NCBI GenBank assembly: GCA_000004985.1
Contig: GG738884.1
Direction: 5' to 3' (one strand)
DNA from: Naegleria gruberi
Lineage: Eukaryota
DNA length: 64,000 bases
The position numbers and the translations under genes were made by a program. Positions 12,473 through 55,647 of the stretch are shown here, piece by piece (the stretch's first letter is position 1; every line of letters begins with the position of its first letter). Below the pieces are notes generated by a model. The model was given only the letters and a program-made list of their open reading frames with translations. It had not been told where the DNA came from and did not search any database.

Positions 12473-12522
12473 NNNNNNNNNNNNNNNNNNNNNNNNNNNN
12501 NNNNNNNNNNNNNNNNNNNNNN
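12473..12522. other. Assembly gap of 50 N that lies inside a gene.
   Basis: A run of N in the sequence. The coding exon of the PRXL2-RGS gene resumes immediately at 12523. Confidence 0.95.
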
Positions 12523-14122
12523 GTCACAAAAACACAACATTCTCCTCATCTTTCGTCGATTTGTAAGTTTCGGCGGGTGTGCCTTCTGCAATAGACGAAT
12601 GGTAGAGTTGATGGAATTTTACAGATCGCTCACACAGTTGAACATTGTACCAATTGTTGTTTATCCGGAAACTGAGGAAAGAGGAGAAGATTTTTTCAAT
12701 TCTGTAAGTTTACTACTGTTCAATGTTCAATAATATTAAATATTAAATACTATATTTACAATAATAATTAACTATTACTATTGAATATTTAACAACTTAC
12801 AAAAAAAATATTTAAAGTGGGAAATTCCCGAAATTTCATCACTCATTCGCGTTCCCGATCCAAACAATGAATTCGCCACTGTTTTTGATATTTACTCCGG
12901 CTCAGTTTCCAAAAAAGTAATCCTGACCTATCTCATTCCACAACTACTACTCACCAAAATGGATGGATTCTCACAGGAACGTAAGAAGAGGGATGAATAC
13001 CATGGGAAAAGTTTCTACATTCGACCTGCAATGTTTCTGATTAGGAGAGGGAAGGTCATCCATTCGTGGCGATTGAATTATGCCGATCATTGTCCTAAGG
13101 TTTTGGAAGAAATTGTTTTGAAATTGGATTTGAAAAGTGGTGGAGGTGATGATTTGGAAAGTTTGAAAATGAATGAGAAAAATGTTGTGAAAATTGAAAG
13201 TAAGAAAGTTATTGGAAAGGAAGAAGAGATGTTGAATGAAGTTTCTAATGAAAATGAAACAAGGAAGGAAGAATGTCAAAATGTAATAATGGAAATGGAA
13301 TTGAAAGAATGTGAATCTCAAATCAAGGAACAAATTCAAATGGAAGAAACTAAACTTGACGAATCTACCCTTCAAACCATTGAAATTTCCACACAAATCG
13401 ACATGCCAATCATTGACACTTCTAGAGAAATTCCAATCTACAAGAGAAAACAAGCAAGCTCATCATTGGAAATAATCACACCAACTGAAAAGAAGGAAAA
13501 TGAAAAAATTCAAACAATCAAAGCAAAGAAATCTCTCCAACCTAAATATTCCTGTTTTGGAAATCGAAATGTGGTAGGAGATTCGGATTTGAACATGTTG
13601 GTAGTTTTGGAAAATCCGAAACTTCGTAAATATTTCAAACTGTTTGCACATATGGAATTTAATATTGAGAATATTCTATTTTGGGAAGAAGTTAATACTC
13701 ACTACAAGCCAATTGCTTCATTTTCCAAATTTGACAAGACGAAATCAATTGCTACAAGTATTGGAAACCTTTTCCTATTCGATTCTCATTCAGTCATGCA
13801 CGTAAATACTTCGGATAAATTAAGGGAACAAGTAAGGGAACAAATTCAATTTCATTTCGAATCAAAATCCATTACTGAACTATTACCATCGAAATATAGA
13901 GTTAATAGATCATTAGAAGACACTGCTGTCGATCCACTTTCGAATACACCAGAAGAATCTGACAACATTTCACAACTTTCAATTGCTGATCGATTTAATG
14001 AAACAGTTACTGGAATATTTGATCCCATCATTAACGAAATGTTATCCTCTTCCATACAGGACATGTTTTTAAGATTCAGGACAAGTGATTTATTCTCCCA
14101 AATGATTTCTTCAGTAAAATAA
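12523..14122 (+). CDS. Fusion protein with an N-terminal PRXL2/FAM213-type thioredoxin-fold (AhpC/TSA-like, CxxC) domain and a C-terminal RGS domain. It is 5'-partial because of the gap. Exons are 12523..12703 and 12818..14122.
   Basis: The exon after the gap reads ...ILLIFRRFVSFGGCAFCNRRMVELMEFYRSLTQLNIVPIVVYPETEERGEDFFNS and ends at a GTAAGT donor (12704). The acceptor is ...tttaaag|TGG (12817/12818), in frame. Translation then continues ...MDGFSQERKKRDEYHGKSFYIRPAMFLIRRGKVIHSWRLNYADHCP, which matches the PRXL2A C-terminal half (NGGFSG...GGVFVVG..GKQGIL). It runs directly into the ORF-track ORF 12959..14122, whose C-terminus carries RGS motifs (YFKLFAHMEFNIENILFWEEVNTHYK ... SIQDMFLRFRTSDLFSQMI). 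A candidate first exon lies upstream of the gap, with an ATG at 12331 (MIQTNSFEMAILECLQYFSLVE, resembling PRXL2A ...AALEYLEDIDL); this is uncertain. Confidence 0.6.
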
Positions 14123-24208: not shown

Positions 24209-26140
24209 ATGGGAAAGAGAGAATTATACAGAAATAAACAAGCTTTGGCTAATGCTGCTCCTCTGGCTCAAGCACACTCCCAACCGCTTGGTATTACCAT
24301 CGGAGCACGTACATCTAATGTAAAGATGCCTAAGGAGGCCATTCCAGCCATCTATTATGAAAAGATTTTAAAATACATGAAAACAAAGGAAATGTTGAAT
24401 GATATTGCAGGAGCTTGCACTAAATATTTGTACAAACCATCGGATTGGAAGTATTATTACTTTGAACATCGTTGGAAGGAATATTCTAACGTGAGAAGAG
24501 CCTTGCGTAAATTAATTCAAATGGGAACACTTCAAGTCTTGTTGAGAGGAAAGTATTATAAGGAAGAGACTTCTGATCCAGAAGCTATTACAAGTGGTGG
24601 TGCCTCTTCTTCTACTGATAATAATCAATCAGCTGATGCTAGTAATGTTGCTTCCGAAGAAGTTTTACAAGTAAAAGAAGAAGAATTTGAAACTTTTGTA
24701 ATTGGAGGAAGAACATTAACTAGAAAAAAGTATGTAAAGGCTTCTTCTGTGCCATCGAATAAGAAGGCCACCACTCCAGTTGATCAAGAGGAAATTCAAA
24801 TTGAAGAAGAAGAAACAATTAATCAACAAGCAATGAATAAGAAGAATAAGAAGAAGAATAAGAAAAACAAAAAGAAGGATCCTTTTGAATTGGATGAGGA
24901 AAATGATGATCAAGATGATGGAACTTTTGATGGATTTGAAATTACCAGAGATGAGGATCGTCCACAATTATATGAATTGAATGAATGGAAAGATGATCCA
25001 AAGAAGAATAAGAAACAAAATAAGAAACAAAACAAAAAGCAAAGTTCTAGTTTGGAAATTGAAGAAGATACTTTTGTAAAGGAAGAAGAAGGTGGTGATA
25101 AGGGAATTCCTTCTAAAGCTGTACATATTGATTTTAATAATATCAAAAAGATTGTAAAGGCAACTGAAAAGATTGATTGTGCTGAAAATGAAGCAGTTCA
25201 GAATATTACTCTCAACTTGACAAGAAAATCAAAGGAAGAATCATCCAGCTCTCAGAAAACTGTGATTCAGGTTGTTAAAGGTGACATGTTGGAAACTGCA
25301 ATTAGTTTGAGAAGGATTTGTAAACTTAATCCACTCGTTTTGGTCTCTGGTAGCCAAACTGTTCCAGGAGGATCTTTTGCTAAGGGAGGAAATACTCAAG
25401 AGGAAGATTTCTGTAGAAGATCATCATTGTCTTTAGCAATTGCTGATCCATACAGATTTGATGAAACTAGAGAGTGGACTTACCCATTACCTGAATTTGG
25501 AGGAATTTATACACCAAATGTTGTAGTGTTAAGAGGTCCAAAGAGCGATGGATATGCCTTCTTGGATAGAACATGGGCTTGCTCAATGTTTATCACCTAT
25601 CCTTATGTGAATCCACCAACAGAGAAGAGAAAGGTAGCCGATCCAAATACTGTCATTCCAAATGAAGAGGACGATGACGAAGAAGTAACAACTGAGAATT
25701 TCCTCTCTACCAAATTGTCCAACTCAATGAAGAAGAAGATTGCTGCCTACTTTGATGTTGCATTAAAGAAGGGTCATGATTCTCTTGTTATTGGTGCTCT
25801 TGGTTGTGAAAATACTCACTCCAATCCTGCCTATCATATTGCTCAACTTTTCAAGGAAGTATTGGCAAGTGAAATTTTCAAGGACAAGTTCAAGGTTGTC
25901 ATTTTCTCTATTTTGGTTGATAAGGAAACTGATAGCAAGTTGGCCAATGAAGGTGGTGCTGACGATGTGGAAGAAGTTGAGGATAATGATGACGTCGAAG
26001 ATCAACAAGATATCTCAACCAATCTGCTCGATACTTCAATTGAAAGAAAGAATAATCTTTCAGTATTTTCCAAATTATTCCACGGAAAGGAAGAAGCTCC
26101 AACAGCTGAAGAATTCATTCCAACCATTGAATGTAAATAA
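24209..26140 (+). CDS. Protein with a C-terminal bacterial-type PARG / DUF2263 (TIGR02452) macro-like domain and a Lys/Glu-rich central region.
   Basis: ATG at 24209. The C-terminal domain reads ...PLVLVSGSQTVPGGSFAKGGNTQEEDFCRRSSLSLAI...YTPNVVVLRG...DSLVIGALGCENTHSNPAYHIAQLFKEVL. This matches the mPARG diphosphate-binding loop and the catalytic QEE (NFAS.GGG...G...AQEE.LCR.S.L) and the second loop (LVLGA.GCGVF.NDP). The central region has KKNKKKNKKNKKK and KKNKKQNKKQNKKQ repeats. Confidence 0.6.
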   Translation: MGKRELYRNKQALANAAPLAQAHSQPLGITIGARTSNVKMPKEAIPAIYYEKILKYMKTKEMLNDIAGACTKYLYKPSDWKYYYFEHRWKEYSNVRRALRKLIQMGTLQVLLRGKYYKEETSDPEAITSGGASSSTDNNQSADASNVASEEVLQVKEEEFETFVIGGRTLTRKKYVKASSVPSNKKATTPVDQEEIQIEEEETINQQAMNKKNKKKNKKNKKKDPFELDEENDDQDDGTFDGFEITRDEDRPQLYELNEWKDDPKKNKKQNKKQNKKQSSSLEIEEDTFVKEEEGGDKGIPSKAVHIDFNNIKKIVKATEKIDCAENEAVQNITLNLTRKSKEESSSSQKTVIQVVKGDMLETAISLRRICKLNPLVLVSGSQTVPGGSFAKGGNTQEEDFCRRSSLSLAIADPYRFDETREWTYPLPEFGGIYTPNVVVLRGPKSDGYAFLDRTWACSMFITYPYVNPPTEKRKVADPNTVIPNEEDDDEEVTTENFLSTKLSNSMKKKIAAYFDVALKKGHDSLVIGALGCENTHSNPAYHIAQLFKEVLASEIFKDKFKVVIFSILVDKETDSKLANEGGADDVEEVEDNDDVEDQQDISTNLLDTSIERKNNLSVFSKLFHGKEEAPTAEEFIPTIECK

Positions 26141-27531: not shown

Positions 27532-29586
27532 ATGGGACAAAACCATTCAGGTGGATCAAATTCTGTGGGTGGAATGGGAGGAACACTAGTTGGAGATCAA
27601 TACAAACCACCAGATCGTACCACAAACAATCTAGCTTCCTCCTTTCATACCAAAGAATCCATCAAAATTCAACAGCAGCAACAACAACAACCCGATTCAA
27701 ATACAAACAACAATAATACATCGTCAGGTAATCTTGTTCTGATAGCAGCATCCAACACTTCCGATGCCTTGCTCATGTCCATCGCAGAGTTAGTCATTGT
27801 TCTCCAACAATTGGGTGAGATTCATCTCGTTGTCTTGCTGGAGGAAATTTCTCGTCACTACTACGAGATTCAAATTGGAGGCAATTTTTCTTCTCTGGAA
27901 GCAATTGCTGCTGCTAACAATAACACACAAGGAAATGGCGCCACTTCTCCAACACAAAATTTACAGGGTGGTGGCCCTCTCGCCAGTACATCATTTAAAA
28001 ATGGCGCCACTGGAAATTATGGCAACTCGAATGTAGATAATGGTCTGAAGAAGTACATTAATTGTGCCAAGTATACTCCCACTTGGTTGGAAGATGAGGG
28101 TGTATTTGGAGGTGGTGGTGGTATCGGAAGTGGATCGATTGGTAGAGGGAGTAGAATTAGTATTGGAGCAACATCAGGAAATAATGGCATGGATGAAGAT
28201 GATATGGAGGAGGATTATGGTGTAAATTATAATACGGATTCTGCTTTTCAGGTCTGGTTGATTGCATTGAAGGATAGACAATTACCGAGATTTAAGAGAA
28301 AATTGGAAAAGTTATTTGTGGATAATAGTGGAGGAGCAAGGAAGGTTGCCTTCTCTTTCAATGTACAAATGTCAACCTCATCGACAAATAGTTTGAGAAG
28401 AGCTTCTTCATTCCTACACGCACAAACTAATCCAAAAACTAATTATGTCATTGATATGGATAGTAAGCAGAAATATTTTGAGGTGAGGTCAGAGATGGAA
28501 ATTATTCTCACTCATACTCTTGAGGAAATTAAAGATTTGAAAGAATGTTTGGATGCAAAGAGAAAAATCGAAGGAGGAACATCAAGTACCAGTGGAGCTG
28601 ATGTTGCCGATGTTTCGGTTCTCCTTCAAGATTTTGATTTTGAATGTAGTTGGTGGGAGAAGAAGATTGGCTCCTCCAATTTCAGTGTCAAGAAGAAGGC
28701 ATTTATTGATGCCATTGAAGAAACTTTTGCTCACTTGAAAGTCAAGTTTGAAATTGAGGTTTTGGAAGAGATTTCAGATCCAACTTGTGATGGAGTTGTA
28801 AGTGTGACAGATTTGAAAACTCTCACTAGATGGTTGGGCAGTATTTACAAGTGGAATACTGACGAATTGAAATTGAGAAATATTGCTGGAAAAGAAGATG
28901 CTGCACCAGTTATTTTCCTTCCTCATTTTTGGGGTTCAGTGACATGTTACGATGCACAAGATATTTTACAAAAGGAAGAACCTGGAACGTACATTATTCG
29001 TTTCAATGAGAACGAGCCTGGGCATTACTACATTTCATGTGTTCAGGAAAATGTTGTGGAAAATGAGGAGACTAGCTCAAATACTGGATTTTTTGCCACT
29101 CGTCAAGTGTATCACTTTGTATTGAAGAGAGGAAAAACTGAGAAGGGAGAACCTTACTATTACTTGTCCGATGCTGATAAGAGTCACAAATTCAAGACCA
29201 TTACTGAGCTACTTGATAAGAATTACTTTTTGACATTCAAATATCCATATGTCAATGACGATCTCAAGTCTGCATTTGTTTCAAAGAAGAGAGATGTCGA
29301 TGTCTTTGGTGCATTGAAGAGTTTATCAGGAGAGGGTGATGATTTGAATCCTTATCCATTTGTTGTATATAAGGGAAAGTTCAATGTTAATGAAAAGAAG
29401 AAGGAATCAGACATGAAAAAGATTGCCAATTTAGCTAAAAAGACTACTGAGCCGTCATTGGGCAATCCAGTCAATAATAATTCATCCTCAAGCATTAAAG
29501 ATCAAGAACCAGGTATGGTACGAGTGGATTCCCTCAATTTACCACTGAGTAATAGCAAGGAAGAAACTTTAGATTTATCTGAATAA
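27532..29586 (+). CDS. N-myristoylation-motif protein (MGQNHSG) with a C-terminal SH2 domain.
   Basis: ATG at 27532. SH2 core FWGSVTCYDAQDILQKEEPGTYIIRFNENEPGHYYISCV ... YHFVL (pattern W.G.ISR..AE..L....GTFLIRxSES.PG.Y.LSV), with the Arg in IRFNE as the conserved phosphotyrosine-binding Arg. The N-terminus has a polyQ tract and Gly-rich segments. Confidence 0.6.
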   Translation: MGQNHSGGSNSVGGMGGTLVGDQYKPPDRTTNNLASSFHTKESIKIQQQQQQQPDSNTNNNNTSSGNLVLIAASNTSDALLMSIAELVIVLQQLGEIHLVVLLEEISRHYYEIQIGGNFSSLEAIAAANNNTQGNGATSPTQNLQGGGPLASTSFKNGATGNYGNSNVDNGLKKYINCAKYTPTWLEDEGVFGGGGGIGSGSIGRGSRISIGATSGNNGMDEDDMEEDYGVNYNTDSAFQVWLIALKDRQLPRFKRKLEKLFVDNSGGARKVAFSFNVQMSTSSTNSLRRASSFLHAQTNPKTNYVIDMDSKQKYFEVRSEMEIILTHTLEEIKDLKECLDAKRKIEGGTSSTSGADVADVSVLLQDFDFECSWWEKKIGSSNFSVKKKAFIDAIEETFAHLKVKFEIEVLEEISDPTCDGVVSVTDLKTLTRWLGSIYKWNTDELKLRNIAGKEDAAPVIFLPHFWGSVTCYDAQDILQKEEPGTYIIRFNENEPGHYYISCVQENVVENEETSSNTGFFATRQVYHFVLKRGKTEKGEPYYYLSDADKSHKFKTITELLDKNYFLTFKYPYVNDDLKSAFVSKKRDVDVFGALKSLSGEGDDLNPYPFVVYKGKFNVNEKKKESDMKKIANLAKKTTEPSLGNPVNNNSSSSIKDQEPGMVRVDSLNLPLSNSKEETLDLSE

Positions 29587-34871: not shown

Positions 34872-35199
34872 TTTTTGATGTTTTGAATATGATGTTTACT
34901 TTGAATATTTGACAACCAAAAGAAAAAAATAGTAATTTCAATAAATTTTCTAATAGATCACTGCATCACATTCTTGGTAGCAATCATACTGCAAACCAAA
35001 CTCTCTCAATGCCTCGAGCTGCAGGTTAGGGCCGTTGAAGGGGATTGCTGTGAAGGACCTTCAGTGACCTCTGCAGTTTTATCCTTCTCAAATTTTGTTT
35101 GGTATGTTATTAAGAATTCAATTTTCTCTATTAGCCATTGGTGGAGCTATGTTTTTTTCGTTTTCTTAACAACAATGAAAAGTTTACAATGAGAAGAAG

Positions 35200-35593
35200 N
35201 NNNNNNNNNNNNNNNNNNNNNNNNNNNNNNNNNNNNNNNNNNNNNNNNNNNNNNNNNNNNNNNNNNNNNNNNNNNNNNNNNNNNNNNNNNNNNNNNNNNN
35301 NNNNNNNNNNNNNNNNNNNNNNNNNNNNNNNNNNNNNNNNNNNNNNNNNNNNNNNNNNNNNNNNNNNNNNNNNNNNNNNNNNNNNNNNNNNNNNNNNNNN
35401 NNNNNNNNNNNNNNNNNNNNNNNNNNNNNNNNNNNNNNNNNNNNNNNNNNNNNNNNNNNNNNNNNNNNNNNNNNNNNNNNNNNNNNNNNNNNNNNNNNNN
35501 NNNNNNNNNNNNNNNNNNNNNNNNNNNNNNNNNNNNNNNNNNNNNNNNNNNNNNNNNNNNNNNNNNNNNNNNNNNNNNNNNNNNNNNNNNNNN
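35200..35593. other. Assembly gap of 394 N.
   Basis: A run of N. The ORF-track ORFs 35131..35951 that span it are artefacts of translating N. Confidence 0.95.
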
Positions 35594-36036
35594 CCAATCC
35601 AACACCACAACATGCAACAAAGTGTGTGCTGCTGTGAGATCCAACAAACACACAAGAAATAAGAGGAGATTCGGAATTTTGAATACTGTAAAAATACCTT
35701 TGTTTACCATCAACAAGATCATCGTAAGTGCGCATCACTCTCTTAATAAACCTTCTGATCATGATGAGTTTGCCAGTTTTCAAGAGTTGCAGCTGAGAAA
35801 TTTCTTGTTTTTTTTCAACTTGGCGAAAAAAAGAACAAGACATCTCCTCCCTTATTCTTACCACTCGAAAAAAATCTGCCTCAATCTGCCTCGCACCTCT
35901 GTAAGATCTTAAATCTATTTTTACCTCCCCTCGCACCTTGTATGGGAGCAAAGTGAACCTTACCTTAATAAAACCATCATTGAAGAAGAATATTCATTTT
36001 TAAGAAGAATATTATTTATAAGAAGTTTGTGCGCAG

Positions 36037-37586: not shown

Positions 37587-39194
37587 TTATTGAGGATTCA
37601 TATTTGTCATATAATTATCTAACAAGTGACATGAAACACCTCCATTCTTTGGACAACCAACTTGAACTTCAGCTCCAGCATGAGCATATCCAAACAATTT
37701 AGGAGGAACTTCAGTTACAAGATCTTGCTTTGTCTTTCCATTCTTTTCGAAAGTATTTACAACACGAACATAATCCTTAACATTTTGGTTGACCACTTCA
37801 GCATGTTTCTTATCACCAACTCTAGGACCTCCAAAAGTAACCAATTCAACCTTAACTCCTGAATTCTTGTTACTCAATTCATAATCAGTTGCTGCAATTT
37901 CACTAATGGCTCCTCCCTTACTATGTCCAGTAAAAACAATCTTGTCAATTTTACCTTCTTTTTGATATTGAGCAATGACCTTGTTGATTTCTTCTCTGTC
38001 TTTCATGTAATTACTGAGGAATCCAGAGTGGATTTTACCAGCATATTGACCATTGAAATAGGTTGATTTCAATCCAATCTTCAAGTTATTTCCCCAATCT
38101 TTCAATGAAGTAGAAACAGTTCCTCTATACGAAACTACAAGAGTCTTATCTTTTTCATTGTACAAGACCTTGGAAGCGACCATTTCCTTCTTGTGATCAG
38201 TTGCTAGAACGACTTGATAACCTTGCTTTTCCAAATTCTTATCATTTGTCTTTTCGTATGCATTATTAGAAATTTGAGAAGCAATCGAAACTGTCTTGGC
38301 TGTAATTGATGTCAATGGAGAAACCTTTTGATTTGCCTTCATTCCATTAAGTGATTTAATCTTTTCAACACCTCTTGTTTGATCATTCTTCTTGGAATTC
38401 TTAATTGCTGAAATGACATTCTTTGCTTTCTTTAATTGCTTTGAAATAATCTTCCAAACTTTAGTTCCCTTTAGTTTACCGCCAGCTTGCTTTAATTTTT
38501 GCAATTTCTTCATGACATTATTCTTCAATGATTTGGAAACTTTCTTAATCTTTTCCTTGAGTTTCTTCTTTCCATTCTTGAAGAGATTGTCAACCTTGGA
38601 ACCTGCCTTTCTGAGCTTTTGCTTTGTAGTTTCAACTTTCTTTGAAATCTTCTTTCCAAGTTTGCTATTCTTCAATTTGGAACCAAATTTCTTCAATCCA
38701 TTCTTGAATTTTTTAGATTTTTCTTTCAATTTCTTTCCAAATTTGCTATTTTTCAACTTGTTTCCAATTTTTTTAATTCCATTTTTGAATTTTTTAGATT
38801 TTTCCTTCAAATTACTTTTAACTTTTCTGAAATTTTGTTTTACCTTGTTGAAATTATTCTTAAATTTGGAAGTTCTCTTGGAAATTGCATTCTTTACCTT
38901 GTTAAATGTCTTTGGAATTGCTCTTTTCACTGATTGACCTATTTTTCTTTCGACAGATGACTTGAAATTCTTAATCTTGTTGGTTGTTGACTTGACCTTG
39001 TTAATTCCACCTCTGATCTTTGATTCAACAGACTTGACCTTGTTAGAAATTGAAGATCTGGCCTTGCTGACGGCTGACTTGAAACCAGAGAAGAATTTGG
39101 CTTCAGTTGGTTGGATGGAACACAAACCGACAAGCGAAATCAAAAGAAACAAGATGAACATGGATGTCCATGTTGGAATAAGTTTTCTCTTCAT
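37587..39194 (-). CDS. Secreted class-3 (fungal-type) lipase-like protein with a long Lys-rich repetitive N-terminal region.
   Basis: ATG at 39194. Signal peptide MKRKLIPTWTSMFILFLLISLVGLCSIQPTEA. About 250 aa of KxxK-rich repeats follow. The C-terminal alpha/beta-hydrolase domain carries the nucleophile elbow FTGHSKGGA (class-3 lipase GHSLGGA) and ...VTFGGPRVGD. Confidence 0.65.
   Translation of the reverse strand: MKRKLIPTWTSMFILFLLISLVGLCSIQPTEAKFFSGFKSAVSKARSSISNKVKSVESKIRGGINKVKSTTNKIKNFKSSVERKIGQSVKRAIPKTFNKVKNAISKRTSKFKNNFNKVKQNFRKVKSNLKEKSKKFKNGIKKIGNKLKNSKFGKKLKEKSKKFKNGLKKFGSKLKNSKLGKKISKKVETTKQKLRKAGSKVDNLFKNGKKKLKEKIKKVSKSLKNNVMKKLQKLKQAGGKLKGTKVWKIISKQLKKAKNVISAIKNSKKNDQTRGVEKIKSLNGMKANQKVSPLTSITAKTVSIASQISNNAYEKTNDKNLEKQGYQVVLATDHKKEMVASKVLYNEKDKTLVVSYRGTVSTSLKDWGNNLKIGLKSTYFNGQYAGKIHSGFLSNYMKDREEINKVIAQYQKEGKIDKIVFTGHSKGGAISEIAATDYELSNKNSGVKVELVTFGGPRVGDKKHAEVVNQNVKDYVRVVNTFEKNGKTKQDLVTEVPPKLFGYAHAGAEVQVGCPKNGGVSCHLLDNYMTNMNPQ
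38651..38810. repeat. Direct tandem repeat of about 80 bp, two copies, within the lipase coding region.
   Basis: 38651..38731 and 38732..38810 are about 85% identical. They encode KLKEKSKKFKNG(I/L)KK(I/F)G(N/S)KLKNSK(F/L)GKK twice. Confidence 0.5.
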
Positions 39195-39557: not shown

Positions 39558-42086
39558 TTAAGGAGATTGCACACTCTTAATATGTTCTTTCCATTTCCTT
39601 GAATTATTAAATCTATAAAACGAGTCCATTAAATTTTTGTAAACCTCTGTTTGTAAAGTTGGGAAAATATTTGGTTTACAAATGTTTGTAATGAGCGGTT
39701 TCATGAGTTCTTCTTGGGATTGATCGATATTTGGGAAATATCTCAATGAAATATCTTTCATGATACGAGGAAGTTGGTTGATTTTGAGTTTGTGGTTGTT
39801 GAGAAGGTTTTGAAGTTCTTTGTAATCTTTCAGTTCAGTGTGGATGATTTTGGAAGGAACGTTAATTTCGAATACTGAACTGCTTTCGGATAGGTAGAGT
39901 TTAGTCATTTCCTTGATTTTCATTACTTTGGAACGAACGTGTCTTTCGTTAATCTTTCTCAATCGATTTAAATCCTCAATGAAGAGTAAATTTTCAACTG
40001 AATATTCTTCTCTCAAATATTGATAGAATAAATCTCTTTCCTTCTTGTGTGAAATGATAAAGTCAATTGAGTAGGAACAAATTGGAGAGGAGAGTAATTG
40101 TTGAATACTTTGAATAGCGTTGGCGTTCTTATCATTGGAGGAATCACTGTTATTGAGATTGGCGGCTTTTCTCTTTTCTTTAAAGGCAAGGAAAAAGTTC
40201 CAAATGCCTTTCATTACAGTTATGCCTGGATTACTGATCGAGCCACCAAGGAAATTGAGACCAATAGCTAGTACGAGTGATGAAGTCAATTGTGAACTAA
40301 TTGGGCCATATGATGGGACAATAACGAGAACTATTCCAGAAGCAATATCGAAAATGACAATGAAAAGACTTTCCACTCTATATACGAAAGGATCAGTTTC
40401 GTAAAAGTAGTAAATAAAGAAATTTTCAGTCTTTTCTCCCTTTTCCTTATTGATTCTTCTTGTTTGGATGTATTTGTAAATGGAAAATATGAAATCCACT
40501 GCCAAAAATAATGGAATAGCAAGGAATAGTATAAAAAGAACGATAATTGCATAAATAGAAACATTGTCTCTATCAATCTTTCTACAATATCCACTGTTTT
40601 GCTCCCAAGAGTAAAAGACACTCTCCCAGGAGTCTTTCGCATGAGAAGCAACTCTAACACTGATAATTACAAACCAAACAATGACCCACAAGGAAATATA
40701 CGATATTTCAACAATTCGATATTTGATAATCTTCTTCAACAAGTTGGCAAATCTTCCTTGTTTGGAAATTTCTTCGTAAGATGTAGAGATGGCATCGTCA
40801 TCGGTTGTCAAATCCAAAGCAATGTCATCGTAATCAGAGTAGGCATTGGAAATTTCATCAAGTTCTGAAGGCCTTGAACCTCTGGCAGACATTGGTGCAT
40901 CACTATTGACTGATTGTGAAAGAGAACTCAAATCCAAAGTCGAAACACCCTCATTAAGAGCAACATTTGAAGCACTAGAAGGGAATTGACCTAAATCTTC
41001 AGTACTTTCTGCTGGTCTCCTCAATGATTTTCTGTTTTGAATTGTATTGGAAGTAGCGTTTTGCTGTTCTGTCTTGTTTTGTAATTTGATGTTTTTGAAT
41101 TTTTCCAATTGCTTTCGTTTGAAATCTTCCAATGATTTTACAATATCCTGTCTCTTGTCCTTTAAAAGTGTCAAAAGCAAGAGTTTGATAATCTGAATAC
41201 TATACAGAGCTACACTGAGAACGACAAGCCCATAAAGCACATACGAATTAACGAAACAATACACATTCTCAAATGTAATATAATTGACCAACCAATTTGG
41301 CAAACCATTGCTAGAATTCAAGTTATTTTGATAAAAAGTTGCAGCGCTAACCGATTTAGTACTCTTTTCCATTAAAAATTGATTCCAATAACTTTCAAAA
41401 TACATCTTAATCCACGGTAAAAAATCAAGTGTACCCTGAATATGACTGATAACATTCAAACCAACCAAAATTAGTGAAACAAAGAATTTCGACTTGATTG
41501 GTTCATAATTTCTCAACAGGAAAATGCAACATGTGAGAAAAATATCAAAAATGACAATTACTACTCTGATAGCAATTGTCACAGTCGTAACCAAATTATT
41601 TCCACTAATCATGACAATTGCCTGCTGAGCTGTAGTCAAATTATAAGTAACATTTCCCAACAGGATTGAAAATTCTGTCGTGTTATAATCCTTCAATGCA
41701 ACATCAGATGGTGCTTGAATTACTTCATGTTGTGAAGAATTATCAACAACAACAACTGAGAGATGATGCATTGTCATGAGTGATGGTGAGTCGATATCAT
41801 TTGGGATAGAGTATGTTTTAAAACGATCTGCTAGGTGACCAATTGTGTTGATTAGGAAGTTCTCCTGACTTTCTAAATGTGTTTTTGTTGAGGTGGAACG
41901 TGTTGATGGAATACTGGTGGCTGACATTGTTTCGGCAAAAAAGCATGTATTGCACAAAAAGAGAAACAAGACTACAAGTATGGTAAGAGTATAAATTTTT
42001 CTAGAACGGCTTTTTGGAAAGTGGCTTGTTGATGGAGACATTTTGTGTACGAATGATGACATGTGGTGGCAATGCTGTTTCATCAA
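39558..42086 (-). CDS. Seven-transmembrane receptor-like protein with a C-terminal RGS domain (7TM-RGS).
   Basis: ATG at 42086. The N-terminus has a signal or TM segment and an ectodomain with N-glycosylation sequons. Seven hydrophobic helices are split three and four around a large acidic loop. The C-terminal RGS motifs are ...SIDFIISHKKERDLFYQYLREEYSVENLLFIEDLNRLRK ... LMDSFYRFNNSRKW. Confidence 0.65.
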   Translation of the reverse strand: MMKQHCHHMSSFVHKMSPSTSHFPKSRSRKIYTLTILVVLFLFLCNTCFFAETMSATSIPSTRSTSTKTHLESQENFLINTIGHLADRFKTYSIPNDIDSPSLMTMHHLSVVVVDNSSQHEVIQAPSDVALKDYNTTEFSILLGNVTYNLTTAQQAIVMISGNNLVTTVTIAIRVVIVIFDIFLTCCIFLLRNYEPIKSKFFVSLILVGLNVISHIQGTLDFLPWIKMYFESYWNQFLMEKSTKSVSAATFYQNNLNSSNGLPNWLVNYITFENVYCFVNSYVLYGLVVLSVALYSIQIIKLLLLTLLKDKRQDIVKSLEDFKRKQLEKFKNIKLQNKTEQQNATSNTIQNRKSLRRPAESTEDLGQFPSSASNVALNEGVSTLDLSSLSQSVNSDAPMSARGSRPSELDEISNAYSDYDDIALDLTTDDDAISTSYEEISKQGRFANLLKKIIKYRIVEISYISLWVIVWFVIISVRVASHAKDSWESVFYSWEQNSGYCRKIDRDNVSIYAIIVLFILFLAIPLFLAVDFIFSIYKYIQTRRINKEKGEKTENFFIYYFYETDPFVYRVESLFIVIFDIASGIVLVIVPSYGPISSQLTSSLVLAIGLNFLGGSISNPGITVMKGIWNFFLAFKEKRKAANLNNSDSSNDKNANAIQSIQQLLSSPICSYSIDFIISHKKERDLFYQYLREEYSVENLLFIEDLNRLRKINERHVRSKVMKIKEMTKLYLSESSSVFEINVPSKIIHTELKDYKELQNLLNNHKLKINQLPRIMKDISLRYFPNIDQSQEELMKPLITNICKPNIFPTLQTEVYKNLMDSFYRFNNSRKWKEHIKSVQSP

Positions 42087-42488
42087 AATGATGAAAATTG
42101 ATAGTGGCTAATGTTATGTTGATGATGGAGAGAGGCTTTTTTATCTCAATATTATCTCTCAATAGTAAAATTGATAATATTTAAAGATTCTAATAGTTTC
42201 GGCAAGTTGTTTGTTTTTTTTAGATGGTTCAATGTTCAAAAGGCATGTACAAAGTTTCCGTGTTTTTTGTTGAACTTGTAAAGCTCAAAAGTACAGTGCT
42301 ATTGTATGTTGGTGTTGAGCAATTTTTTTTCGTAATTACGAAATAACAGCCAAATCAACAAGAAACGTCAAATCATGCAGATTAAATTCCAAAAGGGAAG
42401 CATGTACCAAATTTAATAGAGAATGAACTTTACAGCCACAATACAACAACAACCATATTTATTTACAATGTATCAGTTCTCAAAGTCC

Positions 42489-45400
42489 TTATTTATCTTC
42501 ACGTCCTGGTGAATAGGCAGGAGATGATGGACTATAGCTTGGACTAGTTGGTGAATAGCTAGGACTGGTTGGAGAATAAGCAGGTGAAGATGGACTATAA
42601 CCACCACCAGGATTGTAACTTGGACTGCTTGGTGAATAGGCAGGAGAAGATGGTGAATAGTTTGGACTGGATGGTGAATAAGCTGGTGATGATGGTGAAT
42701 AATTTGGACTGCTTGGTGAATAGCTTGGACTAGTTGGTGAGTAAGCTGGAGAAGATGGACTATAACCAGCACCAGGACTTGTAGCACGTGGACTAGTTGG
42801 AGAGTAAGCTGGTGATGATGGTGAATAGTTTGGACTTGTTGGAGAATAAGCTGGTGAAGTAGGCGAGTAAGCAGGAGATGTTGGTGAATAATTTGGTGAA
42901 GTTGGTGAGTAAGCTGGTGATGTAGGACTGTAATTTGGACTTGTTGGTGAATAAGCTGGTGAAGTTGGTGAATAGTTTGGACTACTTGGAGAATAAGCAG
43001 GTGAGGTTGGACTATAATTACCTGGTGAGGATGGAGAATAGCCACCTTGATGTCCAGGAGAAGTTGGAGAACTAGCAACTGGAGAGAATGCAGAATTATA
43101 AGGTGAAGGACTGAATCCACCTTGGTATTCTGGTGAAGGAGTTCTTCCAAGAGGAGTCATTGCACCTTGAGTCCATGGACTTGAAGCACCACCATGATAT
43201 GGGGTAGCAACACCACCATGATAAGGTGTAGCCAAACCACTTGTATGATAAGGTGTTGTTGCACCAAGACTTCCATACATTGATTTAGTTTCAGTAACAA
43301 AGCTTGGTTTAACAGCAACAGCTTGCTTCAATAATTCTTCATCCAAATACAAACCAAAACAACCAGTACCAATTGGAGCCAATTGACCAACCATAACGTT
43401 AGCAGAAACACCCTTCAAAGTATCAGTATCAGCAAATGTAGCAGCTTCAATAAGAATTTCAACAGTTTCTTCGAAAGAACATCTCATCAATGGACCAGTG
43501 TCACTACGATTAATACCGTGACGAGTAATAGCCATCAAACCACCTCTGTGAGTCATAACATCACACAAAATGGCCAAGTGACGATAGTTAACATAAGAAC
43601 CGTCAAATTCAATAACCTTTCTCATTTCTCTCATGAGGGCATTTCTACATGCTTCAATACCCAAAACATCAAGAATTTCATTAACATCGTTAGATGTTGT
43701 AATAGTATGATCAACATAAGGGTGAGATAAGACAGCCAACAAGTTACATCCTTCAGTATCCAAAACCCATTGTTTAACAGTAGCAACACCAGAACTGCTG
43801 AAAACCTTCTTGTCATTTTCTTCTCTCAAAAAGACCTTCTTGAGATCCTTATAACCCTTAAGGGCCAATTCGTTCAACATGTTTGATTCGAGTCTTCTCA
43901 AAAATTCAACAGTACTATTTTCAATGTCTTCTTCTTCAAGCTTTCTGAGAACTTCATCACTTGGATCCTTTGCAACTTGAGCATCCTTTTCCTTTTCTTT
44001 ATCATCCTTGTGAATACGAACAACGAGAATAAGTTTGTCAGCGTTATCGTCAGAGTAGAAACAAGTAATGTCGTTTTGGAATTCTTCTTGAATCTTCTTA
44101 GCAACTTGAGCCATAGTCAATGTGTCACTCATCATCATCTTGTCAAGTTCAAATCTGAGAGACCATGGATTGAGAGTAGTTGAATCCAAAACTGCTGTAT
44201 CCTTGAGTTCTTCCAACAATTCTTCTATGAATTCTCTATCTTCTTCAATAACAGAGTTTGCTGGCTCTGGATCGTAAACAATTGAAGTAGCAGCAGTAAC
44301 ATGTCCAAGAGTAGTATATTCCAAATCTTCCTTAACCATCTTGGCCTTTTCAAAGTCACCAATATATTCATTATTCAAATAAATAGTCAAACCTGGAGTC
44401 TTAATATTCTTGGCAACGTTCAACAATTCCTTCAAACGAGGAACACCCAAAGTAACGTTCTTTGAAGACACACCGGCAAAGTGGAAAGTATTCAAAGTCA
44501 TTTGAGTAGCAGGTTCACCAATAGATTGGGCAGCAACAGAACCGACCATTTCACCTGGTTGAGCCAAACAATTGTGGAATCTCATTCTAATTTCACCAAC
44601 CAAAAAGTCAAAGGCTTCTTGGGTAAGACACAATTCTTTAAGAACAACCTTTGAAGAGAAGGTTGATCTCAAGAACATACTGAAAAGTAAAGTTGCATTA
44701 GTTTGAGCTTCAGTTGACAATTCATCAGTACCCTTGATAACAACCAAGTCGTCACACAACTTCTTAATCTTTTCAATAACATAAATAGGATTCATGTCTG
44801 ATGGCTTACCAATACTTGGATGGATACCATATTCTTTTTGAGCATTCTTAATAATACGTTTCAAGTTGACAGGCATGACAATCTTATTTTCAGCATTAGG
44901 GAAGATTTCAGTACGTAAAATGTGACGATCTTCCATCAAAGTCTTGTATTCTTCACGGACCTTTGAGAGATAGGTTGCAGGATCCTTCAAAATTTCATCA
45001 TAAACCTTAGTAGAAATGAAAGACTCCTTAAGAATACCACCTGATGGCATTGAAACACTAGATTCAGTTGGGTTTGTGAAAGAAGGAGAACTACCAAGAG
45101 AATTGTACCAATACTTGTCTTGGAATTTAGCATCACTCAAATTCATAATATCAATTGATTGAGATTCAACCTTGTGGGCATCCATACCATCTTCACCATA
45201 CAAGAATTGGACAACATTACCTTGAGCATCACGGACAGTACCATCGTACTTGACCATGATATCTTCCATAGCCTTTATCAATCTTCTTTGGATATAACCA
45301 GTTTCAGATGTCTTGACGGCAGTATCGATCAAACCTTCACGACCACCCATAGTGTGGAAGAAGAATTCTTGAGGAGTTAAACCTCTGAGGTAACTGTTAG

Positions 45401-47989
45401 CAACGAAACCACGACTTTCAGGACCATGGTCATCTTGGGCAAAGTGAGGTAAAGTTCTATTACGGAAACCATAAGGAATACGTTTACCTTCGACGTTTTG
45501 CTGACCGACACAAGCAATAATTTGTGAAATGTTAATGTAAGAACCCTTAGAACCGGCTGTCACCATGGACTTGATGTTATTGTCATCCTTCAATGACTTC
45601 TTAGCCTTGTTACCAGCATCTTCTCTGGCCTTGTTAAGAACCTTGTTAACTTGATTTTCGAAAGATTGTTGAATAGTTCTACCAGCTTCAGCTCTCAATT
45701 TACCTTCTTGAGCATCCTTGACAATAAGTTTGACGTCCTTTTCGGCTTTTCTAATAGTTTCTTCGATTTGTTCCATAGTAGCTTTATCGGCAATAGTGTC
45801 ACCAATACCAATACTGAAACCACGGTTAATAAGCCAATGGTTAATAACTCTTTGACATTGGCCCAAGAATTTCTTTCCTTCATTAACACCCTTTTCATTG
45901 ACAATAATGTGAATCAATGAACCGTGAGAAGAACCTAGAGATTTCTTGTCCAAAACACCTGAAACTAATTCACCTCTGTCAATTAAAACCTTTGTATCAA
46001 ATTCAGGTATGTCGTGATCCAAGTGATCTTTCTTATCGGTCAAATCTTCGTGGGTTGATGATGTATTTTCAAGATTGACTTTTGGAAGAAGGAATGTGAA
46101 AAGTTGTTTACCAGTCCACAATGGTTTTGGTTTCAAAATAGCTGGAACAGGTAATTTACCATCAAAATCAATCAAGTGCATTAAGCAATTCATCATTAAA
46201 TCTTTAGCAATAAAGACATCACGACGTGTAAGTTTAGAAGCAGCCAATAAAGTATCTTGGACAAGGGCAATAACTGGTCTGTTACTTTGAGGAGTAATAA
46301 TATTCCTAGGGACCATCATTAATTCTAACAATTCGGCTTTTGTTTGAAGAGATTGTGGAACGTGCAAATTCATTTCGTCACCGTCAAAGTCAGCATTGTA
46401 TGGGGTAGTGACTGACAAATTCATTCTGAATGTACTGTAAGGCATGACCTTAATTCTGTGACCCATCATAGACATTTTGTGGAGAGAAGGTTGTCTGTTG
46501 AAAAGAATAACATCACCATCTTGTAAGTGACGTTCAACTTTGTAACCATATTCCAATTGAATTTGATCGTTAGCTTTTCCTGAAGCAAATCTCAAATCGA
46601 TACGTGTACCATCTTCACGAATAACATACTTGGCACCAGGATAAGTTAAAGGACCATTTGTAACTAATTCATTCAATCTTTCAAAATTGAAAGGTGTAAC
46701 AATTTCAGGTACTGTCATATTTGAAGCAACAGTACGAGGAACACCAACTTGATCAATATCAATATTTGGATCGGCAGTAATGACAGTTCTTGCAGAAAAA
46801 TCAACACGTTTACCCATCAAGTTACCTCTGACACGTCCTTCCTTACCCTTCAATCTTTGTCTGATTGACTTTAAAGGTCTTCCACTTTTAGTTGTAGCTG
46901 TTGGAACACCTGGATATTCATTATTCACATAGGTAGCACAGTGATATTGTAACATTCTAACCATTTCTTCCATTTGATGAAGTGGTGTACCTGACTTTTC
47001 ATTCTTTTGAATGGCAGCATTAGCCTTGATAATATCTGCAAGTTTGTGTGTCAAGTCATCTTCAGAACGATCAGCTGAACCGTGGTGAACACTTGGACGA
47101 ACCTGTGGTGGAGGAATAGGTAAACATGTAAGAATCATCCATTCTGGACGAGCATTATCCTTATCAAAACCTAACAATTCCAAATCCTCAGCAGGAATTC
47201 TCTTAAAGATTTGAAGAGCACGTTCTGCTGTCAATTCTTGTTTTGTTAATTCTTGTTTAGCTTCGGCGCTAGTATCCTTCTTATATTCTGCAAAAATCTT
47301 TAATCCATCTCTGGAAATCTTAGGTTGGAGACCACCACAACCATTTCTTGGTTGGAAAGTTGGGTCAATATTAGCTTCTTGATTTTGTTCATTTTCCTTG
47401 TTTCCTGTTTCTATTATACATTTGTCTTTTCTACACAGATCGATCATTTCTTTGAATCTTTTACGTCTGTTCACGAATTTTGATGCCTTCTTAAATTGTA
47501 AGCTACTCTTATCCGCTAAAAGTTTACCACAATGAATACACACACTTTGTAGCACCTTCACTACTGTATTAATAAAGAGAACATTAAACACTGGATGTAT
47601 TCTAACGTGGCCAAAGTGACCAGGACATTCTGTAGCGTTACCTCCACAACTATTATTGTTAATTAGTTATTATTATTAGTGATGTTGTTGTTGTAATAGT
47701 TTGTTATCATTGTTGATGAGAGAAATTATGAAGAACAGGATTTTTGTATTAAAGATTAGAGGCTTGTTAAATTTCCTCCAAATACTTACGTCAGACAAGA
47801 AAGATGGTGATCAATGGTACCCATACGAAGATCCATCAAACCACTTTCCTTTGGTTTTCCCTTTTCTTGTGTTTCAGCGTGAAGCACTTCACAGACAGAC
47901 ATCTTTTCAATAACTTCAGGATTCAAGATACCGAATTGAATTCTATCAACTCTGGCCAATTCGATTGGCGAGAACGAGAAGAGAGACAT
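42489..47989 (-). CDS. RPB1: RNA polymerase II largest subunit. Exon 1 is 47790..47989 and exon 2 is 42489..47649, separated by a 140-nt intron (47650..47789).
   Basis: Exon 1 reads MSLFSFSPIELARVDRIQFGILNPEVIEKMSVCEVLHAETQEKGKPKESGLMDLRMGTIDHHLSCL and ends at a GTAAGT donor. The acceptor is aataatag|T TGT GGA GGT, restoring ...CLTCGGNATECPGHFGHV. Exon 2 carries all the conserved Rpb1 blocks (NADFDGDEMNLHVPQS, the bridge helix, the trigger loop). The C-terminal domain has about 24 heptads YSP(T/S)SP(A/N/S). The ORF-track 'M' at 47591 is a GTG inside exon 2. Confidence 0.95.
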
Positions 47990-54213: not shown

Positions 54214-55647
54214 TTATTTTGCCTTTCTAATTCTCTGATCGTATAATTCACTCTCAACGAATCTCAAAAACGAATCCTTAATTGCATCTCCTTCCATGCT
54301 AACTTTCACATCATCGAACAATTCAGGAATTGCTCCTTCCTTTTCAAAGGTTGACAAGACTCTCTTTTTCATGGCTGACGAAATGTTAATTTCCAACATG
54401 GAATCCGAATTCAAATATGTATCAATTATATATTGAGCAAGTTGTCTTCTCTTTTTCAGAGTTTTTAATTTCTGATAGGCAGTTGCATGTTCCCAAAACA
54501 GTAAACTTTCAATGGCATAAATTTTGGCAGCAAATAGTTTGAAAACTTTTCGATATTGTGGATTGATTAATGATTCTTCGAGTGAAATGGTACACGAGAG
54601 GTCAATTTGAGCTGATGTACAACTAAATGATCGTTTGTCTTTCATTTTCATTACTTCTTTTGGGAGAGAAGCAAGTTTTCGAGCCATTGGATAATTCTGC
54701 AAAAGTTTTTTCATATTTTTTCTTTCCACAAGGTTGACCTGTGAGGTTTCTACAAATTCTGGAACAATTTCTTCCTTATCAATTGATTCTTCATCATTTG
54801 TTGAAGAATCGTCTGATATACTCAATAAATCGAATAGATTATCACTTCCTTTTCCTTCGACATCAAGTAATAATTCGAGAAAATCTGGAATTTTCGAAGC
54901 TGAATGAGTTACAAATTGATTAACTATTCTGCCATGTGCCACAATGAAAGAACCAGCCAATTGATCTCTATCTGCCTTCTTTGAGGCATCAGGTGTCAAT
55001 TTATAACCTTCTGTCAATGACAATTTAAAAGCATCCAAAGTTGACGTGAAAGTTACCATCTTTGTGGCTGAAGGCACAACTCCAAATTGCTTATAATAAT
55101 AAGTACCTTCTGGATCTTCGACTCTTAGAAATTGTTTCATCAGTTTACTCCTTGCACTCTTTTCAAAAGTTACTGACACTGTCTCACTTGTCAAAGCTTG
55201 ATTATTGACAGTTATTTCTTTATCTTCCTTCTTTTCCAACTTGATCAATGGCTTAGGCATTCCCTTCTCTGAAAAGAATTCATCAGCTTCTTCCTTACTT
55301 TCTTGATGAACAAAAACGGGCACACAATTCAACTTGATTAAATTTGACAAACAGCTGACAATCTGAACAACACTTTTTTGACAGAAAACACAACCAAAAT
55401 AGCGAAGGAATATGAGAAGGACAATATGCTTTCTACTCAGCTCTTCAACTGTTACTCCAATATTAGTTTTCATTTCGGATAGAAGGTGGTGAGGTAATCC
55501 TTCAATACCAGTTAATTGTATTTGTGATTGAATATCATCGGGATGATAATCTGTTGCGTTATTATCGTTAGGTTCTATGATGATTGCATTGTCATCATTT
55601 TGGGATGTTTCTTTTTGGTTTAGGTTAGTTTCTTCTTGTCCTAACAT
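54214..55647 (-). CDS. PRXL2/FAM213-type thioredoxin-fold (CxxC) domain fused to a C-terminal RGS domain. It is a paralog of the gene at 12523..14122 and has no intron.
   Basis: ATG at 55647. ...IVLLIFLRYFGCVFCQKSVVQIVSCLSNLIKLNCVPVFVHQESKEEADEFF ... GSFIVAHGRIVNQFVTHSASKIPDF parallels the other copy (ILLIFRRFVSFGGCAFCNRRMVELMEFYRSLTQLNIVPIVVYPETEERGEDFF ... GKSFYIRPAMFLIRRGKVIHSW). The C-terminal RGS motifs are YRKVFKLFAAKIYAIESLLFWEHATAYQKLK ... IKDSFLRFVESELY. Confidence 0.6.
   Translation of the reverse strand: MLGQEETNLNQKETSQNDDNAIIIEPNDNNATDYHPDDIQSQIQLTGIEGLPHHLLSEMKTNIGVTVEELSRKHIVLLIFLRYFGCVFCQKSVVQIVSCLSNLIKLNCVPVFVHQESKEEADEFFSEKGMPKPLIKLEKKEDKEITVNNQALTSETVSVTFEKSARSKLMKQFLRVEDPEGTYYYKQFGVVPSATKMVTFTSTLDAFKLSLTEGYKLTPDASKKADRDQLAGSFIVAHGRIVNQFVTHSASKIPDFLELLLDVEGKGSDNLFDLLSISDDSSTNDEESIDKEEIVPEFVETSQVNLVERKNMKKLLQNYPMARKLASLPKEVMKMKDKRSFSCTSAQIDLSCTISLEESLINPQYRKVFKLFAAKIYAIESLLFWEHATAYQKLKTLKKRRQLAQYIIDTYLNSDSMLEINISSAMKKRVLSTFEKEGAIPELFDDVKVSMEGDAIKDSFLRFVESELYDQRIRKAK

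What the first reader, a model, noticed from the sequence alone, without database searches (positions are those of the whole stretch)
39558..42086. 7TM receptor-like protein with a C-terminal RGS domain
The architecture is a signal peptide, a glycosylated ectodomain, seven hydrophobic helices (three and four around a long acidic loop) and a terminal RGS box. It is the self-contained receptor-plus-GAP arrangement known from plant AtRGS1 and scattered protists. It fits the RGS-rich signalling content of this window.
Basis: partly seen in the sequence, partly recalled or inferred. Interest (0 to 1): 0.55.

Follow-up and report, generated by a model that had tools for sequence, protein, structure and literature searches.

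The report
Naegleria seven-helix membrane protein with RGS
This is a real Naegleria gruberi gene for a receptor-shaped membrane protein with a built-in G-protein off-switch (RGS) domain, a design already described and partly tested in Naegleria, so it is a sound but ordinary finding.

Summary

The architecture is not new: Bosch et al. 2022 (PMC9283941) report 28 7TM-RGS proteins in N. fowleri and show GAP activity for three RGS domains.

What is specific here is the membrane core. HMMER against 1.84 billion proteins finds only five relatives: three Naegleria, one Willaertia and one metagenomic of unknown source. No Pfam GPCR family matches, and there is no profile similarity to the AtRGS1 7TM domain. 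The signal peptide is plausible but unconserved and unproven. Glycosylation is only predicted from sequons. Verdict: new member of a known kind, low-to-moderate interest.

The parts
39558..42086 (-). Whole ORF, 842 codons plus stop (39558-39560). The first ATG is at 42083. The public gene model starts at Met54 (41927).
41934..41990 (-). N-terminal hydrophobic segment, residues 33-51, preceded by KSRSRK. It is a candidate signal peptide or signal anchor, and it is not conserved in homologues.
41598..41933 (-). Predicted extracellular N-terminal region, residues 52-163. It is S/T-rich with four NxS/T sequons and has no Pfam domain.
41514..41597 (-). TM1, residues 164-191, followed by the conserved RNxxPxK in ICL1
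41421..41483 (-). TM2, residues 202-222 (marginally hydrophobic)
41172..41267 (-). TM3, residues 274-305, with conserved Cys277 at its outer end
40722..41171 (-). Long cytoplasmic loop between TM3 and TM4, residues 306-455. It starts with a basic helix, has a disordered variable middle, and ends with a conserved acidic S/T-rich block (DIALDLTTDDDAISTSYEEISK) before TM4.
40644..40721 (-). TM4, residues 456-481
40476..40565 (-). TM5, residues 508-537. It is preceded by ECL2, which holds the invariant Cys500.
40377..40475 (-). ICL3, residues 538-570, with the family signature NFxxYYFxETDPFVYR. F555, Y558, F560, T563, D564, F566, Y568 and R569 are invariant.
40311..40376 (-). TM6, residues 571-592
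40215..40289 (-). TM7, residues 600-624, with the conserved GGxxxNPGIT motif (P619 and G620 invariant). It is marginally hydrophobic.
40068..40214 (-). Basic juxtamembrane helix and linker, residues 625-673
39561..40067 (-). RGS box, residues 674-842, with an insert of about 45 residues. The G-alpha contact residues are E697/N698, N741 and D820/R824.

Best explanation
The gene encodes a Naegleria gruberi 7TM-RGS protein. It is a GPCR-fold membrane protein with its N-terminus outside and its C-terminus in the cytosol, and the tail carries a catalytically competent RGS box. The most likely mechanism is the one established for AtRGS1 and shown in part for N. fowleri 7TM-RGS proteins. The membrane-tethered RGS domain binds the transition state of one or more of the amoeba's many G-alpha subunits, some of which exchange nucleotide spontaneously. 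It accelerates GTP hydrolysis and so holds signalling off. An extracellular or membrane cue sensed by the 7TM part then relieves or relocates that GAP activity.

Shown here: the ORF, the seven conserved helices, the GPCR-like predicted fold, the cytosolic placement of the RGS box, and conservation of all RGS4-type G-alpha contact residues.

Inferred: GAP activity, the G-alpha partner, and any ligand control. It is also inferred that the conserved acidic S/T-rich block of the TM3-TM4 loop and the ETDPFVYR motif of ICL3 are regulatory or coupling elements.
For: - The ORF is identical to an N. gruberi protein.
- RGS is supported by Pfam above the cut-off, by RGS matches in 7 of 7 family members, by the RGS fold at Foldseek probability 1.0, and by profile alignment to RGS4. 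That alignment places the family-invariant E697/N698, N741 and D820/R824 on RGS4 E87/N88, N128 and D163/R167.
- Topology is supported by K/R 27 inside against 7 outside and by a conserved Cys pair at the TM3 top and ECL2.
- The architecture is conserved in homologues from N. lovaniensis, Willaertia magna and a metagenome.
- In the literature, N. fowleri has 28 7TM-RGS proteins. The RGS domains of 7TM RGS2-4 act as GAPs on G-alpha2, 3, 5 and 7 and bind the AlF4- form (PMC9283941). 7TM-RGS proteins are reported as widespread in bikonts (PMC3971589).
Against: - No biochemical or expression data exist for this protein or its subfamily.
- The Pfam RGS score is only 3 bits above the cut-off, and the box carries an insert of about 45 residues of unknown effect.
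- The AF2 model rests on 7 sequences (mean pLDDT 67), and AF2 may favour a GPCR-like packing for any seven-helix input.
- TM2 and TM7 are only marginally hydrophobic on the Hessa scale.
- A 150-residue insertion in ICL2, a loop GPCRs normally use to couple to G proteins, has no precedent I can cite. It could mean that the membrane part works differently.
Confidence: 0.75

Rival explanations
1. A true ligand-activated GPCR (a GEF for G-alpha) with a built-in RGS domain. The RGS domain would sharpen signal kinetics or act as an effector or scaffold, rather than the protein being primarily a constitutive GAP that is relieved by ligand.
Against: There are no class-defining GPCR motifs and no Pfam GPCR hit. 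ICL2 is interrupted by 150 residues. No GEF activity has been shown for any 7TM-RGS protein in the papers read.
Confidence: 0.15
2. The RGS box is a non-catalytic RGS-homology scaffold, as in GRKs or sorting nexins. The seven-helix part would then be a membrane anchor, or a transporter-like module unrelated to G-protein signalling.
For: The Pfam score is weak (27 bits). The RGS box has an insert of about 45 residues. GRK RH domains appear among the lower Foldseek hits.
Confidence: 0.07
3. A gene-model artefact. Either the ORF joins two neighbouring genes (a 3TM protein and a 4TM-RGS protein), or the N-terminal 53 codons are untranslated leader.
For: The N. gruberi paralogue P0005 is modelled as only 4TM+RGS and starts inside the loop. 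P0002 and P0006 lack TM1-2. The public model of this gene starts at Met54.
Against: A single stop-free frame of 842 codons in 34% GC DNA cannot be chance. The full TM1-TM7+RGS arrangement recurs in N. lovaniensis, Willaertia and a metagenome contig. The only donor-like motif (GTATGT at 41244) lies inside conserved TM3 coding sequence. The truncated paralogues are more simply explained as incomplete models, but their loci could not be fetched.
Confidence: 0.03

Closest known systems
Naegleria fowleri 7TM RGS proteins (28 genes; Nf 7TM RGS1-4 studied; Bosch, Jeck & Siderovski 2022, PMC9283941)
   Same: Same genus and same architecture, with an N-terminal seven-helix domain and a C-terminal RGS box. 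The RGS boxes use a canonical G-alpha interface. The proposed role is as membrane GAPs for self-activating G-alpha subunits.
   Different: The studied Nf proteins have large adhesion-GPCR-like ectodomains with EGF repeats, lectin domains and a GPS motif. This protein has a short, domain-free, S/T-rich N-terminus. Its 7TM core retrieved only five relatives from 1.84 billion representatives, so it is a distinct small subfamily. The N. lovaniensis homologue P0003 makes an N. fowleri orthologue likely.
Arabidopsis AtRGS1 and plant RGS1 orthologues
   Same: A 7TM domain plus a cytosolic C-terminal RGS box. The RGS halves are detectably homologous (hhalign P = 1.2e-4). AtRGS1 has an established mechanism as a membrane GAP for a self-activating G-alpha.
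   Different: The 7TM domains show no detectable similarity (hhalign P = 0.22 over 30 out-of-register columns). Plant RGS1 is about 460 aa with short loops. This protein is 842 aa, with a 150-residue TM3-TM4 loop and an RGS insert of about 45 residues. Some plant proteins carry a precomputed Pfam 7tm_3 hit, and this family carries none.
GPCR superfamily fold (closest solved bundles: class C TAS1R2/3, GABA-B2, GPR156 and mGlu2; class T TAS2R14; class D Ste2; class A CB2)
   Different: Sequence identity is 5-10%. No Pfam 7TM family matches, including Dicty_CAR (cAMP-receptor type). The long insert sits in ICL2 rather than ICL3. The margin of class C over other classes (16.3 against about 15) is too small to assign a class.
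Human R4/RZ/R7 RGS boxes (RGS4, RGS8, RGS17, RGS9)
   Same: Same fold (Foldseek probability 1.0, TMt 0.67-0.84). The contact residues equivalent to RGS4 E87/N88/N128/D163/R167 are conserved.
   Different: There is an insertion of about 45 residues between the N128-loop region and the last helices (family profile nodes 104-169 against RGS4 129-149). Identity is 14-25%.

Membership tests
RGS domain proteins (Pfam PF00615) | Sequence match to the RGS profile above the curated cut-off | tested here: met
   27.0 bits against a cut-off of 23.9, E 6.5e-6. All 7 family members match, best 2.3e-8. PDB phmmer gives RGS17 at 5e-5.
RGS domain proteins (Pfam PF00615) | Helical RGS-box fold | tested here: met
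   The AF2 model has pLDDT 75-88 in this region. Foldseek gives probability 1.0 to RGS8, RGS9, RGS1, RGS17, RGS2, RGS16 and RGS4, with TMt up to 0.84.
RGS domain proteins (Pfam PF00615) | G-alpha switch-contact residues of GAP-active boxes (RGS4 E87, N88, N128, D163, R167) | tested here: met
   E697, N698, N741, D820 and R824 are invariant in 7 of 7 sequences. The family profile aligns them to the RGS4 residues. The RGS4 sequence was recalled from memory, and its numbering was checked at six positions.
RGS domain proteins (Pfam PF00615) | GTPase-accelerating activity on a G-alpha subunit | not testable with these tools
   Needs a biochemical assay. GAP activity has been shown for three other Naegleria 7TM-RGS boxes (PMC9283941).
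7TM-RGS architecture (AtRGS1 type, sensu Urano 2012 / Bradford 2013 / de Mendoza 2014) | Seven transmembrane helices N-terminal to the RGS box | tested here: met
   [not shown]
7TM-RGS architecture (AtRGS1 type, sensu Urano 2012 / Bradford 2013 / de Mendoza 2014) | RGS box on the cytosolic side | tested here: met
   The positive-inside count is 27 against 7, with the N-terminus out and the C-terminus in. This is predicted and not measured.
AtRGS1 family proper (homologous 7TM domain) | 7TM domain homologous to the plant RGS1 7TM domain | tested here: not met
   hhalign of the family 7TM profile against a 12-species plant RGS1 7TM profile gives probability 0.3% and P 0.22. The positive control, RGS against RGS, gives P 1.2e-4. 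Both profiles are shallow, so deep homology is not excluded.
Naegleria 7TM RGS family (Bosch et al. 2022) | Naegleria protein with predicted 7TM and a C-terminal RGS | tested here: met
   definition in PMC9283941
Naegleria 7TM RGS family (Bosch et al. 2022) | Adhesion-GPCR-like ectodomain (GPS motif, EGF repeats, lectin), as seen in a sizable number of members including Nf 7TM RGS1-4 | tested here: not met
   No Pfam domain is found in residues 1-163 at E <= 1. The paper does not treat this feature as obligatory for the family.
cAMP-receptor-type GPCRs (Pfam Dicty_CAR) and other Pfam GPCR families (7tm_1, 7tm_2, 7tm_3, Frizzled, STE2 and others) | Sequence match to the family profile | tested here: not met
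   No 7TM family is listed for any of the 7 members, even at E <= 10. HMMER filters drop most matches above about 0.1.
GPCR fold | Seven-helix bundle with GPCR helix packing | tested here: met
   [not shown]

The most novel reading that the evidence does not exclude
The membrane half may be a previously undescribed GPCR-fold family, so far seen only in vahlkampfiid heteroloboseans (Naegleria, Willaertia) and one unplaced metagenomic sequence. Its marks are a 150-residue regulatory insertion in ICL2, an NFxxYYFxETDPFVYR signature in ICL3 and a GGxxxNPGIT motif in TM7. It would have acquired its RGS box independently of the plant AtRGS1 lineage. Receptor-GAP fusion would then have arisen more than once, on unrelated seven-helix scaffolds.
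Probability: 0.4. Interest if true: 0.4.

Novelty: new member of a known kind. Interest (0 to 1): 0.25.

Why it matters
7TM-RGS proteins are the proposed receptor-side regulators of self-activating G proteins in plants and many protists. Naegleria has an unusually large set: 28 in N. fowleri, and 229 RGS genes of all kinds reported for N. gruberi. This gene adds an annotated, topology-checked member from a small subfamily with a domain-free ectodomain. It also supplies conserved cytoplasmic motifs that could be mutated to test how a seven-helix domain controls an attached GAP. It gives a name to a database entry that is currently only a 'predicted protein', and it suggests a longer N-terminus than the public model. 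It does not change the current picture of G-protein signalling.

Tried and rejected
- The single-sequence AF2 model was useless (pLDDT 42). It was replaced by a 7-sequence alignment model.
- The genome-contig scan for the paralogue locus failed, because that collection holds only bacteria and archaea.
- The look-up of encoding contigs had no record for P0002 or P0005. I therefore could not check whether the truncated paralogue models hide upstream TM1-3 exons.
- The word-indexed protein search found only 2 family members with the single sequence and 4 with the profile. The exhaustive HMMER search was needed to find 5 representatives.
- The afdb50 fold library was not available. AtRGS1-type and other predicted 7TM-RGS structures could therefore not be compared by fold.
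- Pairwise MAFFT with RGS4 misaligned the N128 loop. This was corrected with a profile alignment.
- I considered the idea that the ORF is two genes or contains a retained intron, and rejected it.

Full report
**What is there.** The window is Naegleria gruberi nuclear DNA. The ORF at 39558-42086 (-) is 100% identical to an N. gruberi 'predicted protein' (P0001, 789 aa). The neighbouring ORF is RNA polymerase II Rpb1 with its heptad tail. The ORF is uninterrupted for 842 codons in 34% GC DNA.

The public model starts at Met54. The frame stays open for 52 more codons upstream, with ATGs at codons 2, 9 and 16. The chance expectation for this is about 2% given the base composition. The extension encodes a basic stretch (KSRSRK) followed by a 19-residue hydrophobic segment. 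That looks like a signal peptide or signal anchor. It is not conserved in the four homologues whose models reach the N-terminal region: P0003, P0004, P0006 and P0007. I therefore treat it as plausible but unproven.

**The RGS half.** Pfam RGS scores 27.0 bits against a gathering cut-off of 23.9. All seven members of the family match it, best E 2.3e-8. phmmer against PDB sequences finds RGS17 (5e-5), RGS9 and RGS10. The match splits into an N-terminal stretch and the C-terminal helix, which reveals an insert.

A profile of the family RGS region aligned to human RGS4 places three conserved blocks on the RGS4 contact residues:
- S-x-E-N-L-L-F aligns to S85-E-E87-N88.
- F-E-V-N aligns to K-E-V-N128.
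- D-S-y-y-R-F aligns to D163-S-Y-R-R167-F.

The corresponding residues E697, N698, N741, D820 and R824 are invariant in all seven sequences. About 45 extra residues lie between profile nodes 104 and 169. The RGS4 sequence was recalled from memory, and its numbering was checked at six landmark residues. In the alignment-based AlphaFold model this region has pLDDT 75-88. Foldseek matches it to RGS8, RGS9, RGS1, RGS17, RGS2, RGS16 and RGS4 with probability 1.0 and target TM-scores up to 0.84. The C-terminus is therefore a canonical, probably GAP-competent, RGS box with an insertion.

**The membrane half.** Kyte-Doolittle analysis of the single sequence gives strong peaks for TM1, TM3, TM4, TM5 and TM6 and a weaker one for TM2. 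On the Hessa scale TM2 and TM7 fall below the insertion threshold. Averaging hydropathy over the seven-sequence alignment gives seven conserved segments: 164-193, 202-220, 275-308, 456-484, 506-538, 571-598 and 598-622.

Several observations support the topology:
- K+R counts are 27 on the predicted cytoplasmic side against 7 outside.
- Sequons just before TM1 recur in two homologues.
- A Cys at the top of TM3 and an invariant Cys in ECL2 sit where GPCRs have their common disulfide.

**The 3+4 arrangement.** This arrangement is real. The 150-residue loop lies between TM3 and TM4, so it is ICL2 and cytoplasmic. It begins with a basic helical extension of TM3 and has a variable disordered middle. 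It ends in a conserved acidic S/T-rich block (DIALDLTTDDDAISTSYEEISK; D409, D424 and D430 invariant). The loop as a whole is not acidic (22 K/R, 24 D/E). Two other family signatures are NFxxYYFxETDPFVYR in ICL3 and GGxxxNPGIT in TM7.

**Relatives.** A HMMER profile of the membrane half, searched against 1.84 billion representative proteins, found only five hits, all at E <= 1e-10. They are one N. lovaniensis protein, two further N. gruberi proteins, one Willaertia magna protein and one protein from an ENA metagenome contig. With P0001 and P0002 this makes seven known members. All carry the RGS box.

P0002, P0005 and P0006 lack some N-terminal helices in their models. I could not fetch their loci to see whether this is real. 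No member matches any Pfam 7TM family, including Dicty_CAR and 7tm_1, 7tm_2 and 7tm_3, even at E <= 10.

To test the AtRGS1 comparison directly, I retrieved plant RGS1 proteins and built a 12-species profile of their 7TM domain. hhalign against the Naegleria 7TM profile gave P = 0.22 over 30 out-of-register columns. The RGS halves gave P = 1.2e-4 as a positive control. The similarity to AtRGS1 is thus architectural. Homology of the membrane domains is not supported, and it is not excluded either, since both profiles are shallow.

**What is known.** de Mendoza et al. 2014 note that many bikonts have 7TM-RGS architectures (PMC3971589). N. gruberi is credited with 229 RGS genes (PMC5784254). Bosch, Jeck and Siderovski 2022 report 28 7TM-RGS proteins in N. 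fowleri. They show that the RGS boxes of three of them accelerate GTP hydrolysis on G-alpha2, 3, 5 and 7, bind the AlF4- state, and are blocked by the switch-1 G-to-S mutation. They find self-activating G-alpha subunits in the same organism (PMC9283941). The studied members have adhesion-GPCR-like ectodomains, which this protein lacks. The architecture and its likely mechanism are therefore already described for this genus. This gene is an unnamed member of a small, sequence-isolated subfamily.

**Mechanism.** The most likely role is a plasma-membrane GAP for one or more G-alpha subunits (confidence 0.75). The 7TM domain would provide localisation and probably stimulus control. The conserved ICL2 acidic block and the ICL3 motif are candidate regulatory or coupling surfaces; that part is inference only. 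Three rivals remain:
- A genuine GEF-type GPCR with a kinetic RGS module (0.15).
- A non-catalytic RGS-homology scaffold (0.07), disfavoured by the invariant contact residues.
- A gene-model artefact (0.03), disfavoured by the single long frame and by the same layout in three genera.

**Context.** Three of about 28 long ORFs in the window carry RGS domains: 12959-14122 (+), the target, and 54214-55647 (-). At 229 RGS genes per roughly 15,700 genes (the gene total is from my memory of the genome paper), about 0.4 would be expected. The 'RGS-rich' remark therefore holds. The three have different architectures and are not tandem copies, and only the target is membrane-bound.

**Verdict.** The finding is a new member of a known kind, and interest is low to moderate. 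The remaining open points are the true start codon, experimental topology, GAP activity and partner, and whether the heterolobosean membrane core is an independent GPCR-fold family.

Noticed in passing
window 12959-14122 (+): A second RGS-domain ORF of 387 aa (Pfam RGS 27.4 bits, residues 216-302). It has no TM segments and has an acidic, low-complexity N-terminal half, so it is a soluble RGS protein.
   Followed up: partly
window 54214-55647 (-): A third RGS-domain ORF of 477 aa, with a strong C-terminal RGS match (53.7 bits, residues 356-471). It has no convincing TM helices. The N-terminal part contains a CxxC-like 'FGCVFCQ' motif reminiscent of a thioredoxin or peroxiredoxin-like fold, but no Pfam hit at E <= 0.001.
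   Followed up: partly
window 42489-47591 (-): The RNA polymerase II largest subunit (Rpb1) with a long YSPTSPA-type C-terminal repeat array. The ORF begins at Pfam Rpb1 domain-1 position 80, so the first exon probably lies upstream of 47591 beyond an intron. The 225-aa ORF at 42473-43150 (-) is an alternative-frame artefact of the heptad repeats.
   Followed up: no
window 37587-39194 (-): The gene immediately downstream encodes a secreted-looking protein. It has an N-terminal hydrophobic segment, then about 250 residues of lysine-rich repeats (KFKNGxKKxGxKLKNSKxGKK, with a weak apolipoprotein-like hit), then a class 3 lipase domain (93.6 bits). This is an unusual amphipathic-repeat plus lipase combination.
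   Followed up: no
window 12473-12522 and 35200-35593: Runs of N (assembly gaps). The 255-aa ORF at 35184-35951 (-) runs through the second gap and is not a reliable gene.
   Followed up: no
window 27532-29586 (+) and 24209-26140 (+): An SH2-domain protein of 684 aa (32 bits) and a protein with a microbial-type poly(ADP-ribose) glycohydrolase domain (64.8 bits). These are further signalling-type genes in the window.
   Followed up: no
P0005 and P0006 (N. gruberi paralogues elsewhere in the genome): P0005 is modelled as only the last four helices plus RGS, starting inside the long loop. P0006 replaces TM1-2 with a long N/S/H-rich low-complexity region. These are either incomplete gene models or genuine 4TM/5TM-RGS variants of the family. 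Their loci could not be retrieved.
   Followed up: partly
[not shown]
   Followed up: no
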